Position numbers and translations under genes: made by a program. A stretch of 64,000 bases of DNA, taken from the NCBI GenBank assembly GCA_949292945.1, contig CASFAX010000003.1, forward strand, positions 37,554 through 101,553, read 5' to 3'. How positions within the stretch are numbered: position 1 is the stretch's first letter; the number at the start of each line of letters is the position of its first letter. The notes under the pieces are model-generated. The model saw nothing but the letters and a program-made list of their open reading frames with translations, was not told the DNA's origin and made no database searches. Of this stretch, positions 20,978 through 60,389 are shown in pieces. Origin of the DNA: an uncultured Bacillota bacterium (GTDB lineage Bacteria > Bacillota > Clostridia > Peptostreptococcales > Anaerovoracaceae).

Positions 20978-21200
20978 GCGTTCGATGTGAAACCGGTTTT
21001 GAGACGTTTACATCGAACACTTTTTCGATTTCGATGCGGATTTTTACGCTTTACATCGAATAATTTCGTTGCAGACAAGGGTTTATCAGCGGATTTGTTC
21101 GATGCCGGAAGCATTTTCAGGCTTTGAGGTCGAAGAAACGTTCGACCCAGGCGCCGAAACGCGGGTATGACATCGAAAGCCTCAAATATCGAAAGCTTCC
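20978..21200 (+). repeat. TCGA-core multi-hairpin non-coding element, copy A
   Basis: 11 TCGA tetramers between 20982 and 21234, arranged as consecutive inverted repeats of (C/G)(A/G)TCGAA and its complement. Homologous to the inverted copy at 58866-59055. Confidence 0.6.
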
Positions 21201-21284: not shown

Positions 21285-21319
21285 TATTGTTGTGATACAT
21301 TTTGAAAACTTAACAGGAA

Positions 21320-21592
21320 AACAGTAGGTGCTGCATTGAAAAATGCAGGTAAAAGGGAAACAGGTTTAAAGCCTGTGCGATCTCGTCACTGTATTCAGCA
21401 GTGTATCGCCAATTATGTCACTGAGAAATCGGGAAGGCGGCGGTATGCGTTACGCTGTGAGCCAGGAAACCTGCCTGCTGTGGTACGGGAATTTGTTGAA
21501 TTCCAGATTACGAGGTTTGATCGTACCGAAACTTATATTTTTTTTATTCGATTTCGACGATCCAGCTGCGTTATGCAAGTTGGATTTTTTCT
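21320..21592 (+). promoter_or_regulatory. cobalamin riboswitch 1 with terminator expression platform
   Basis: TAAAAGGGAAACAGGTTTAAAGCCTGTGC..CACTGT core, GTCACTG..GGGAAGGC, and B12 box GAGCCAGGAAACCTGCC. P1 pairs CAGTAGG with CCTGCTG. Terminator ATCCAGC/GTTGGAT plus T6 at 21560-21592. Confidence 0.85.
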
Positions 21593-23544: not shown

Positions 23545-23842
23545 CATGAAACTGAATCATCTCGGAAGCCGGTGCAAATCCGGCGCTGTGTCTCAGCAAC
23601 CGTGATGTCCTTATGTCGGAAAAGTGAAGTGCTATACGCTTCGGTCACTGAAGCCTTTGGCTTTGGGAAGGCATTTTTTCGAATCTCGGACTAAGCCGGT
23701 AGACCTGATTTAAGTTTAAAGCGAGTCTTCTGAGATAAGATGTGCGATTTGTTTTATGATGTTTTCCGGTTTCGTATCGGCGTAGCGGGGAAACGTGATT
23801 AAGCGATTTACAGGCATCTCGAAGGTCGGGATGTCTTTTTAT
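23545..23842 (+). promoter_or_regulatory. cobalamin riboswitch 2 with terminator expression platform
   Basis: GGAAGCCGGTGCAAATCCGGCGCTGT..CAGCAACCGTGA core, GGTCACTG..GGGAAGGC, and B12-box variant AAGCCGGTAGACCTGAT. Terminator AGGCATC/GATGTCT plus a T-run at 23812-23842. Confidence 0.8.
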
Positions 23843-58568: not shown

Positions 58569-58709
58569 ATAGTGCGTTTTGCGCATATGTTACATGGCGA
58601 AATAATATAAAGCAGAGAAACAATTAATATGCAAAATTAGTGCTTGCAATTTCTTGGATTTGTGGTAACATATATAAATGTGGCCGGTAAAAAAACGGAC
58701 ACATGATAA

Positions 58710-58791
58710 GCGGCCGTGGCGGAATGGCAGACGCGTACGTTTGAGGGGCGTATGGGCAACCGTGCTGGTTCGAGTCCAGTCGGCCGCACCA
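58710..58791 (+). tRNA. tRNA-Leu (anticodon GAG)
   Basis: Hand-folded. Acceptor GCGGCCG/CGGCCGC, 3-bp D stem, anticodon stem TACGT/GCGTA with loop TTGAGGG, long variable arm, T arm CTGGTTCGAGTCCAG, encoded CCA. Confidence 0.9.
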
Positions 58792-58795
58792 CTTG

Positions 58796-58824
58796 AATCC
58801 GAACCGAACAGGTTCGGATTTTTT
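58796..58824 (+). terminator. Rho-independent terminator after tRNA-Leu(GAG)
   Basis: AATCCGAACC-gaaca-GGTTCGGATT followed by TTTT. Confidence 0.9.
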
Positions 58825-58865: not shown

Positions 58866-59055
58866 TATATTTTTGGAGTTCGACTTTTTTGCGGTATACA
58901 CGTGGTCAGGTCGAACGGTTCTTCGACAAAATCTGCGGTATCTGATGCTTAGGTCGAACTTTTCGGTCAGTATCCTGATGAAAACGACAGATATGTTCGA
59001 CCTCAGAGACCTTTTGGGGATAAGACATCGAAAAATCGTTCGATGTAAGGTCACT
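58866..59055 (-). repeat. TCGA-core multi-hairpin non-coding element, copy B (inverted relative to copy A)
   Basis: 7 TCGA tetramers in about 165 nt. The reverse complement shares two conserved blocks with copy A at an identical 121-nt spacing. Confidence 0.6.
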
Positions 59056-59135
59056 ATTTGTTGAAAAAGTAGAACCATATAGGCTGACGACATTAAAATC
59101 AACCGGCTTTATGTAGGTATGGAAGGTATGGACGT

Positions 59136-60389
59136 ATGAAAAGCGATGAAACATCCTTATTCAGAAACAGGAACTACATACTTCTGATTTTGTCTAACGT
59201 ATTTAACAGGTTTGGCGATTCCATAGACTCCATAGTGTTCACATGGCTTGCGTATTCTATTACGGGAAGCGCCTCGTACAGCGCCATAGTTTTTGCGGCA
59301 AACCGTATTCCTACGGTTCTCTTTCAGCCTGTAACCGGAGTGATAATTGAAAGGCGCAGAAAAAAGTATATAATGGCGGTTTCAGATGTTATTAGAGCCA
59401 TGCTTGCAGGATACATTCTGATTAGACTTGTTACGGGTCTGCCGACGCCGCCGGAGATGGTAATTGTAACTTTTTTGATTTCTACGGTAGAAGCTTTCAG
59501 GCAGCCTGCCGGAAGCAGTATCATTCCTGAAGTTGTCGACGAACCGATGTATACCCAGGCTGTTTCATATCAGTCTGGATTTTCCAGCGGAGCTGAGCTT
59601 GCAGGCCTGGGCGCTGCCGGTGTACTTATCGGATTTATTGGAAATGCAGGTGCAGTTTTAGTCGATGCTGCTATGTTCTTGCTGTCGGCATTTTTTCTGT
59701 TTGCAATGAGAATCGGGAGAACAGGCGGGGGAGGTAAAGATGATATTCACCTGCGAAAAATTTTCTCCGGCCTTGCGGAGGGTGCCCGTGTGGTGAGGGC
59801 AAGCGATATTATAATGTTTCTGATTACCTTTGCCGTGCTTCTAAACGCCATGCTGACGCCGTATAACTGCCTTCCGTCGCCTATGGTAAAGGAGATACTT
59901 AAAAGCGATGAAAGAATGCTGTCTGTAATCGGCGTAGCGCTGAGCCTGGGTATGATAGCGGGTTCGTCTTTATATCCGAAGCTGAGCGCACGGTTTAAGT
60001 GCAGGCCGCTGCTTATGACAGCAGGGATTTTTACGGGCCTTATGTATATCGGAACGGTGATTCTGGGAGAATTTTCAATATCATCATATGCGCTTTACGC
60101 ATTTCAGGGGACGATAATGTTTTTTTCAGGAACCGGCATTTCGATACTGAATACATTTGCAATGGTAAATATTCTCAGAAAGTGTAATCCCGATTATCTT
60201 TCAAGGGTCAGCGGAATCGTAGCCAGCGCATGTTCTGCTGCTGTTCCGGTTGTTTCTTTCATCGTTTCCGCTGTTGCAGGTTTTGTCTCTACTGCATGTA
60301 TTTTCACAGTAATGGGGGTACTGACGCTGGCAACGTGTTTTGTCGTATTCAGCAGAAAGGTGATGCCGAAGGAGCTCCTTGAAAACTGA
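59136..60389 (+). CDS. MFS transporter
   Basis: 417 aa, 12 predicted TM helices, typical MFS N-terminus (RNRNYILLILSNVFNRFGDS). Confidence 0.8.
   Translation: MKSDETSLFRNRNYILLILSNVFNRFGDSIDSIVFTWLAYSITGSASYSAIVFAANRIPTVLFQPVTGVIIERRRKKYIMAVSDVIRAMLAGYILIRLVTGLPTPPEMVIVTFLISTVEAFRQPAGSSIIPEVVDEPMYTQAVSYQSGFSSGAELAGLGAAGVLIGFIGNAGAVLVDAAMFLLSAFFLFAMRIGRTGGGGKDDIHLRKIFSGLAEGARVVRASDIIMFLITFAVLLNAMLTPYNCLPSPMVKEILKSDERMLSVIGVALSLGMIAGSSLYPKLSARFKCRPLLMTAGIFTGLMYIGTVILGEFSISSYALYAFQGTIMFFSGTGISILNTFAMVNILRKCNPDYLSRVSGIVASACSAAVPVVSFIVSAVAGFVSTACIFTVMGVLTLATCFVVFSRKVMPKELLEN

What the first reader, a model, noticed from the sequence alone, without database searches (positions are those of the whole stretch)
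58866..59055. Second, inverted copy of the TCGA hairpin element with identical spacing and compensatory stem changes
Seen in sequence: the gap between the tRNA-Leu(GAG) terminator and the MFS gene holds 7 TCGA tetramers in about 165 nt. Reverse-complemented, it aligns without gaps to copy A. Block 1 is TTACATCGAACgaTTTTTCGAT (B 59048 down to 59027) versus TTACATCGAACacTTTTTCGAT (A 21008-21029), 20 of 22 identical. Block 2 is GTCGAAGAAcCGTTCGACC (B 58927 down to 58909) versus GTCGAAGAAaCGTTCGACC (A 21129-21147), 18 of 19 identical. The block-to-block distance is 121 nt in both copies, and three further TCGA cores fall at the same offsets (about +48, +92 and +166), although the intervening sequence is largely different. 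The helix pairing offsets 46-52 with 90-96 is CATCGAA/TTCGATG in A and (A)GGTCGAA(C)/(G)TTCGACC(T) in B. That gives two compensatory pair changes outside the TCGA core (C-G to G-C and A-T to G-C). The outer pairing around block 2 changes likewise (TTCGAT..ATCGAA versus TTCGAC..GTCGAA). In both loci the same strand of the element faces the downstream gene (thiN on minus, the MFS gene on plus). Inference: selection acts on secondary structure, either RNA or cruciform/ssDNA, as in a structured ncRNA, cis-regulatory leader or REP-like element.
Basis: seen in the sequence. Interest (0 to 1): 0.6.

Follow-up and report, generated by a model that had tools for sequence, protein, structure and literature searches.

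The report
Genus-specific TCGA palindromic intergenic repeat
The TCGA-rich stretch between tRNA-Leu and the transporter gene is one of about 37 copies of a roughly 200-base palindromic repeat found only in one genus of uncultured gut Clostridia; it is a new family of a familiar kind of "junk-like" intergenic repeat, not a dedicated regulator of the neighbouring gene.

Summary
Copy B (core 58878-59075) carries seven TCGA anchors plus a degenerate eighth, and aligns without gaps to copy A (20980-21178).

A and B are not a special pair. This 2.0-Mb genome holds about 37 such loci, all intergenic. Each has eight GTTCGA/TCGAAC anchors at rigid spacing (31-12-31-43-31-12-31), with largely unrelated sequence between them. 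The element consists of four 39-nt units in alternating orientation, so it has dyad symmetry. A(+) aligns to B(+) as well as to B(-), which makes "inverted copy" and "same strand faces the gene" meaningless.

The family occurs in 4 of 5 genomes of the genus (Candidatus Avanaerovorax) and in none of 56 other genomes of its family and order. A scan of one genome per species (185,579) found it in four other species' genomes.

Site B is empty at the syntenic locus in three congeners.

Covariation is real only for the bases next to the anchors. It supports two mutually exclusive folds equally, and sites that cannot pair are also correlated. The spacers show no copy-specific compensation.

No Rfam family, RAYT or DDE/IS110 transposase was found.

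Best reading: a new BIME/REPIN/MITE-like repeat whose mobilising protein is unknown.

The parts
58878..59075 (.). Copy B, core of the repeat: eight anchors s1-s8. TCGA starts at 58880, 58911, 58923, 58954, 58997, 59028 and 59040; s8 is degenerate (TAGA at 59070).
58878..58916 (+). Unit U1, 39 nt, GTTCGA...TCGAAC (s1-s2).
   Evidence: Unit consensus; forms a hairpin in the folds.
58921..58959 (-). Unit U2, reverse orientation (s3-s4). Together s2 and s3 form core block 1, TCGAAC-GGTTCT-TCGA.
58960..58994 (.). Central linker between s4 and s5. The flanks AGGTCGAAC and GTTCGACCT are complementary.
58995..59033 (+). Unit U3 (s5-s6).
59038..59075 (-). Unit U4, reverse orientation (s7-s8, with s8 decayed). 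Together s6 and s7 form core block 2, TCGAAAAATCGTTCGA.
20980..21178 (.). Copy A of the same family, between the thiamin pyrophosphokinase gene and the cobalamin riboswitch.
58710..58791 (+). tRNA-Leu(GAG), the left neighbour. It is not part of the element.
58795..58821 (+). Intrinsic terminator of the tRNA gene. It is not part of the element.
59136..60389 (+). MFS transporter gene, the right neighbour. It is not part of the element.

Best explanation
Copy B is one member of a dispersed family of non-coding DNA repeats restricted to one genus.

Shown:
- Each copy consists of four 39-nt units (GTTCGA-N27-TCGAAC) in alternating orientation. The linkers are 4-5 nt, about 37 nt and 4-5 nt.
- This gives eight TCGA anchors at rigid spacing and nested dyad symmetry. 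The layout is that of BIME/REPIN clusters of REP elements.
- Site B is occupied in this genome and empty at the syntenic locus in three congeners. The same site holds a different subfamily in another species, and near-identical copies occur in unrelated flanks.

Inferred:
- The element behaves as non-autonomous mobile or recombining DNA.
- The invariant TCGAA(C) anchors and their fixed geometry are the recognition sites of the unidentified protein that copies or maintains the element. They may be read as duplex sites or as the feet of extruded hairpins.
- The spacers drift or are shuffled between copies.
- Any effect on neighbouring genes, such as stabilising or ending transcripts, would be incidental, as for REP and ERIC elements.
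For: - Copy number: about 37 loci, found by iterated nhmmer. All lie between gene-like ORFs. They occupy 31 of 345 long intergenic gaps.
- Spacing: 31/12/31/43/31/12/31 in 20-27 of 22-29 scorable copies for each interval.
- Units: the four oriented units share one consensus.
- Range: 4 of 5 genomes of the genus and 0 of 56 others. The scan of one genome per species (185,579) found it in four other species' genomes. It is absent from viral contigs. The three of seven metagenome-contig hits that were read lie in GC-rich sequence without the other anchors.
- Site B: empty in G002, G003 and G004, with the same tRNA-Leu(GAG)-MFS-tRNA-Leu(CAA) synteny and a spacer of about 80 nt against 345 nt here.
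- Copies in other species are up to 93-96% identical, while their flanks share no DNA similarity.
- The site downstream of lexA holds unrelated subfamilies in two species.
- Several contigs end inside copies.
Against: - No transposase was found in this 96%-complete assembly. Y1/RAYT, rve, IS110 and DDE_Tnp_1 are all absent. No multi-copy transposase ORFs were found. The anchor 9-mers occur outside the elements no more often than chance predicts.
- No consistent target-site duplication was seen. The outer boundaries differ by subfamily, from 8 to 65 nt beyond s1 and s8.
- No clean filled-versus-empty pair among close relatives was obtained.
- The median identity between copies is only 56%, which is low for a recently active MITE.
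- Many copies sit at shared loci in different species, so long retention under host selection is also possible.
Confidence: 0.7

Rival explanations
1. The element is a structured non-coding RNA or cis-regulatory leader. It is transcribed, and the TCGA segments form helices that act on the downstream gene or on the stability of the upstream mRNA.
For: - Copy B folds well: z = -3.2 as RNA.
- RNAalifold returns a cloverleaf consensus.
- Flank pairs exceed every one of 500 shuffles.
- There is a non-significant trend towards gene 3' ends.
Against: - The RNAalifold covariation term is only -0.64 kcal/mol.
- Two mutually exclusive folds score equally.
- Sites that cannot pair are also correlated.
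- There is no copy-specific compensation.
- The helix cores never vary.
- The element has no strand asymmetry.
- There is no Rfam match even at E <= 10.
- Site B is empty in congeners.
- The neighbouring genes have unrelated functions.
Confidence: 0.08
2. The element is a fixed-geometry array of duplex binding sites for a host DNA-binding protein, with a regulatory or architectural role. One specific version: each core block (CGAAC-N4-TTTCG) is a weak LexA (Cheo-type) operator.
For: - The anchor sequence is invariant and the spacing rigid. Intervals of 31, 43 and 74 bp correspond to 3, 4 and 7 helical turns.
- Core blocks match CGAAC-N4-GTTCG at 9 of 10 specified positions.
- Native SOS boxes in this genome are GAAC-N4-GTT[CT].
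- One copy lies directly downstream of lexA in two species.
Against: - Position 10 of the box is T in at least 90% of copies and G in all four native boxes.
- LexA is also present in G001, which has no element.
- One copy in 37 lying next to lexA is weak evidence.
- Spo0A, whose box TGTCGAA resembles some anchors, is absent from the genus.
- The insertion and replacement pattern fits selfish spread better.
Confidence: 0.12
3. The element is an invertible DNA switch. The two core blocks are inverted recombination sites for a tyrosine recombinase, which flips the 101-bp interior.
For: - Each block looks like a recombinase core site, with 8-bp inverted arms and an asymmetric 6-bp spacer. The two blocks are mutually inverted.
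- The genome encodes seven tyrosine recombinases, one directly beside a copy.
Against: - In 27 pairs of related copies whose outer segments match, the interior always matches in the direct orientation and never reversed.
- The consensus of the interior is symmetric and carries no promoter-like signal in B.
- No tyrosine recombinase is shared by the four element-bearing genomes and missing from G001.
Confidence: 0.03

Closest known systems
BIMEs and REPINs (clusters or doublets of REP elements; Enterobacteria, Pseudomonas)
   Same: Units are imperfect palindromes of 35-40 nt in alternating orientation with fixed short and long linkers. Copies are strictly intergenic, number in the tens, and are specific to a lineage. 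Sequence at the hairpin foot is conserved.
   Different: No RAYT (Y1 transposase) is present in the genome. The foot motif is GTTCGA/TCGAAC rather than GTAG. There are always four units. The inner stems are poorly conserved and do not covary. The host is a Clostridia genus.
ERIC/IRU elements (Enterobacteriaceae)
   Same: A long imperfect palindrome of more than 100 bp in intergenic regions, with no mobilising enzyme known.
   Different: ERIC copies are similar along their whole length. Here only the eight anchors and their spacing are kept, and median identity between copies is 56%. The two families were not compared directly.
MITEs such as Correia elements (Neisseria) and RUP (pneumococcus), and the modular pneumococcal BOX repeats
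   Same: Short, non-coding, with inverted-repeat ends. Sites can be occupied or empty. Copies are mosaics of subfamilies.
   Different: No target-site duplication, no parent IS and no transposase were found. The ends are not sharply defined.
Ends of Tn7- and Mu-type transposons, which carry several phased transposase-binding sites
   Same: Several copies of one short binding motif at fixed spacing in each arm, with the arms inverted.
   Different: No rve-type transposase is present in the genome with the most copies. This resemblance is recalled from memory and was not tested.

Membership tests
REP/BIME/REPIN | Short imperfect palindromic units, multi-copy and extragenic | tested here: met
   39-nt units bounded by GTTCGA/TCGAAC; about 37 loci, all intergenic.
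REP/BIME/REPIN | Units clustered in alternating orientation with fixed linkers | tested here: met
   The order is U, rcU, U, rcU, with invariant spacing.
REP/BIME/REPIN | A cognate RAYT (Y1 HUH transposase) gene in the genome | tested here: not met
   PF01797 gives no match in the window's own 96%-complete genome; positive controls were detected.
REP/BIME/REPIN | Conserved GTAG-type tetranucleotide at the 5' foot | tested here: not met
   The foot reads GTTCGA.
MITE | Terminal inverted repeats | tested here: met
   The family consensus has dyad symmetry. Outer flanks such as AAGGAAnnGTTCGA ... TCGAACnnTTCCTT appear in some subfamilies.
MITE | Target-site duplication | tested here: inconclusive
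   Boundaries differ by subfamily. Only a possible 2-nt duplication was seen, in one pair.
MITE | A parent autonomous element with the same ends and a transposase | tested here: not met
   Anchor 9-mers outside the elements are at chance level. There are no multi-copy transposase ORFs. rve, IS110 and DDE_Tnp_1 are absent from this genome. The assembly is a MAG, so an IS could have been missed.
MITE | Occupied and empty sites among relatives | tested here: met
   Site B is empty in three congeners with conserved synteny.
Described structured RNA family (Rfam) | Match to a curated covariance model | tested here: not met
   Nothing at gathering score, and nothing meaningful at E <= 10.
Structured RNA in general | Covariation that supports one fold | tested here: inconclusive
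   Against 500 shuffles: cloverleaf 0, two-domain fold 0, global hairpin 1, four hairpins 15-36 depending on the measure. Sites that cannot pair also correlate.
Structured RNA in general | Transcription as a discrete RNA | not testable with these tools
Invertible promoter switch (inverton) | Both orientations of the interior are observed | tested here: not met
   0 of 27 related pairs have a reversed interior. Read-level data were not available.
LexA (Cheo-box) operator | GAAC-N4-GTTC palindrome like the organism's own SOS boxes | tested here: not met
   The blocks read CGAAC-N4-TTTCG, with T fixed where all four native boxes have G.

The most novel reading that the evidence does not exclude
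The element may be a mobile cassette of eight phased duplex binding sites. Each half resembles a recombinase or repressor core site (CGAAC-N4-TTTCG) flanked by two accessory half-sites at +/-31 bp. Under this reading it is spread or exploited by a tyrosine recombinase or a LexA-like winged-helix protein rather than by any transposase. That would be a new way of propagating REP-like repeats in Firmicutes. A link to island integration is possible: a 12-kb pilus island with an integrase lies between two copies.
Probability: 0.1. Interest if true: 0.75.

Novelty: new member of a known kind. Interest (0 to 1): 0.36.

Why it matters
REP, BIME, ERIC and MITE-type repeats are well described in Proteobacteria and in a few pathogens. 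They are barely described in anaerobic gut Clostridia.

This family has very rigid geometry, with invariant anchors and free spacers. The genome that carries the most copies encodes no known mobilising enzyme.

Practical points:
- The family breaks MAG assemblies, since contigs end inside copies.
- It can be mistaken for a riboswitch-like leader.
- It could serve as a marker for typing or tracking the genus.

If the protein that recognises the anchors were found, it could reveal how RAYT-less palindromic repeats spread.

Tried and rejected
- Global long hairpin or cruciform with copy-specific arms. Rejected: left-right complementarity within a copy equals that between copies.
- Copy-specific hairpins within each unit. 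Rejected by the chimera test and by fixed-register pairing.
- Concerted evolution of the four units within one element. Not seen, z <= 1.9.
- Inverton. No reversed interiors.
- Spo0A boxes. There is no Spo0A in the genus.
- LexA operator. The key base is wrong.
- RAYT, rve, IS110 and DDE transposases, and multi-copy ORFs. Absent. The multi-copy ORFs have sequences that look like cell-wall-binding surface proteins; this was read by eye and they were not scanned.
- Hybrid attL/attR test at the pilus island. The single element in G002 matches only the left of this genome's two copies, along its whole length.
- Similarity to phages or plasmids. None relevant.
- Viral contigs had no match. Of seven metagenome-contig hits, the three that were read lie in GC-rich sequence without the other anchors.
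- Literature searches on the motif, the genus and LexA with MITEs. Nothing relevant beyond the taxonomy of the genus.
- Exact-protein look-up for strain variants. Not on record.
- A clean empty site among the three close congeners at locus L017. The site is a synteny breakpoint.
- Bias in gene context. Not significant: convergent 10 of 31, p = 0.11; divergent 3 of 31, p = 0.18.

Full report
**Observation**

TCGA starts at 58880, 58911, 58923, 58954, 58997, 59028 and 59040. The two conserved blocks match copy A at 20 of 22 and 18 of 19 positions, and the block-to-block distance is 121 nt in both copies. TCGA occurs once per 340 nt in this genome, so seven in 217 nt has P = 5e-6. An eighth anchor, decayed to TAGA, lies at 59070. 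The core is therefore 58878-59075.

**A and B belong to a family**

A scan of the whole genome (2.0 Mb, 77 contigs, 48.5% G+C) for dense TCGA found 34 clusters. Iterated nhmmer found about 37 loci of 195-200 nt. TCGAA-N6-TTCGA occurs 58 times, mostly as pairs 116-118 nt apart.

The multiple alignment shows eight anchors, s1 to s8. Odd-numbered sites read GTTCGA followed by TGT or CCT. Even-numbered sites read ACA or AGG followed by TCGAAC. Most of the sequence between anchors differs from copy to copy. Spacing is almost invariant at 31, 12, 31, 43, 31, 12, 31. Sixteen of 32 full copies keep all eight anchors.

**Anatomy**

Once oriented, the four stretches s1-s2, s3-s4, s5-s6 and s7-s8 share one 39-nt consensus, GTTCGAtgT.aa...c..ttt..ggc.tt.A.aTCGAA(C/A). 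The element is therefore U, rcU, a linker of about 37 nt, U, rcU. This is the layout of a BIME or of two REPINs. It explains why every locus is hit on both strands. It also explains why A(+) aligns without gaps to B(+) (111 of 246) as well as to B(-) (105 of 246).

**Is structure selected?**

RNAalifold gives a weak cloverleaf (s1-s8, s2-s3, s4-s5, s6-s7). Its covariation term is -0.64 kcal/mol.

On alignment A2, which holds 34 copies less than 80% identical to each other:

| Fold | Covariation score | Shuffled mean | Shuffles reaching it (of 500) |
|---|---|---|---|
| Cloverleaf | 0.168 | 0.120 | 0 |
| Two-domain (s1-s4, s2-s3, s5-s8, s6-s7) | 0.164 | 0.118 | 0 |
| Global hairpin | 0.151 | 0.122 | 1 |
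| Four hairpins | 0.123 | 0.111 | 26 |

The cloverleaf and the two-domain fold exclude each other, yet they score the same.

The signal comes from the one to three bases next to the anchors. The s4-s5 pair is very strong (p = 2e-6 and 9e-5). However, s4-s8 (p = 4e-4) and s1-s5 (p = 0.005) are in the same orientation and cannot pair, and they are correlated too.

Outside the anchors, three tests found no copy-specific pairing:
- Left-right complementarity within a copy is 0.40, against 0.41 between different copies.
- Chimeras of two copies fold as well as real copies.
- Inner-stem positions pair no more often than cross-copy expectation.

The symmetry therefore belongs to the family consensus. 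The TCGAA cores are conserved as sequence, and genuine compensatory evolution is not established. Copy B does fold stably (z = -3.2 as RNA, -4.0 as DNA), as any palindrome-rich sequence would.

**Distribution**

The pattern was scanned against one genome for each of 185,579 species. It hit four other species' genomes, among them Candidatus Avanaerovorax faecigallinarum. That genus is placed in Anaerovoracaceae, Peptostreptococcales (PMC8035907).

Within the genus, 4 of 5 genomes carry the element. Half-element matches number 49 here and 6-13 in the other three. None of 56 other genomes of the family and order has it, and the reversed-pattern control gave zero. There are no matches in viral contigs. 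Of the seven metagenome-contig hits, the three that were read lie in GC-rich sequence and lack the other anchors. There is no Rfam match and no relevant phage or plasmid similarity.

**Dynamics**

The syntenic locus tRNA-Leu(GAG)-MFS-tRNA-Leu(CAA) exists in G002, G003 and G004. Its spacer there is about 80 nt and holds no element, against 345 nt here.

One subfamily is 87-96% identical across species, while its flanks share no DNA similarity.

Downstream of lexA, this genome and G002 both carry an element. Only the anchors match, although the flanking genes are about 90% identical.

About half of the copies found in relatives map to loci that are also occupied here. Copies are mosaics, and duplicated segments extend 8-65 nt beyond s1 and s8 depending on subfamily. 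No consistent target duplication was seen.

Interiors are never inverted relative to the outer parts in 27 related pairs.

The distribution over convergent, tandem and divergent gaps does not differ significantly from that of long intergenic gaps.

**Search for a partner protein**

The genome has no Y1/RAYT, rve, IS110 or DDE_Tnp_1 gene. It has no multi-copy transposase-like ORFs. The anchor 9-mers are not in excess outside the elements.

Seven tyrosine recombinases are present. One of them (290 aa) lies beside a copy at the end of a 12-kb sortase-pilus island. The island sits between rho and hbd and is bracketed by two copies. G002 has a single copy between rho and hbd. That single copy matches only the left of this genome's two copies, so no hybrid att sites are evident.

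The core blocks resemble the Gram-positive LexA box at 9 of 10 positions. They carry a fixed T where the organism's own boxes have G; those boxes lie at the lexA promoter and as three boxes before a LysM-domain gene that resembles the SOS-induced division inhibitor yneA (resemblance judged from its sequence, not scanned). Spo0A is absent from the genus.

**Verdict**

The finding is real. It is one copy of a genus-specific composite palindromic repeat of the BIME/REPIN/ERIC/MITE kind. It is not a private regulatory structure of the MFS gene. Its mobilising or binding protein is unknown.

Noticed in passing
own genome C1:55519-67725 (outside the window): A 12-kb island lies between rho and hbd and is bracketed by two copies of the repeat. 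It encodes class-C sortases, LPXTG pilin-like proteins, a 1650-aa adhesin, an S8 peptidase, a signal peptidase and a 290-aa tyrosine recombinase. G002 has rho, one copy and hbd with no island. G003 has a different integrase beside the copy next to hbd.
   Followed up: partly
own genome C8:749-826 (L030) and C6:58412-58500 (L028:1769-1782): Native SOS boxes. Three GAAC-N4-GTT[CT] boxes lie around the promoter of a LysM-domain gene that looks like yneA. One box, CGAACAGATGTTTA, overlaps the -35 region of lexA. A copy of the repeat lies directly downstream of lexA here and in G002.
   Followed up: partly
whole genome: CTAG is almost absent: 497 observed against 7814 expected, a ratio of 0.06. GATC (0.50) and CGCG (0.45) are also depleted, while TCGA is only mildly depleted (0.76).
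   Followed up: no
L017:28-130 (G004) and G002 C26, C21, C3, C1: A separate repeat of about 100 nt is 97-98% identical at four places in G002, at least one of them at a contig end. It is unrelated to the TCGA element.
   Followed up: no
window 58640-58709 and L021:1250-1337: The promoter region upstream of tRNA-Leu(GAG) is nearly identical between this genome and G002, although the sequence downstream of the tRNA has diverged completely.
   Followed up: no
own genome C21:4209-5708, C61:2-1438, C60:247-3066, C27:252-2549, C34:2163-4331: A family of large surface-protein paralogues whose C-terminal repeats look like cell-wall-binding repeats (judged from the sequences, not scanned). Two of them lie beside copies of the repeat.
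   Followed up: no
window 21309-21492 and 23564-23704: Two cobalamin riboswitches (Rfam RF00174). The first lies about 130 nt to the right of copy A.
   Followed up: no
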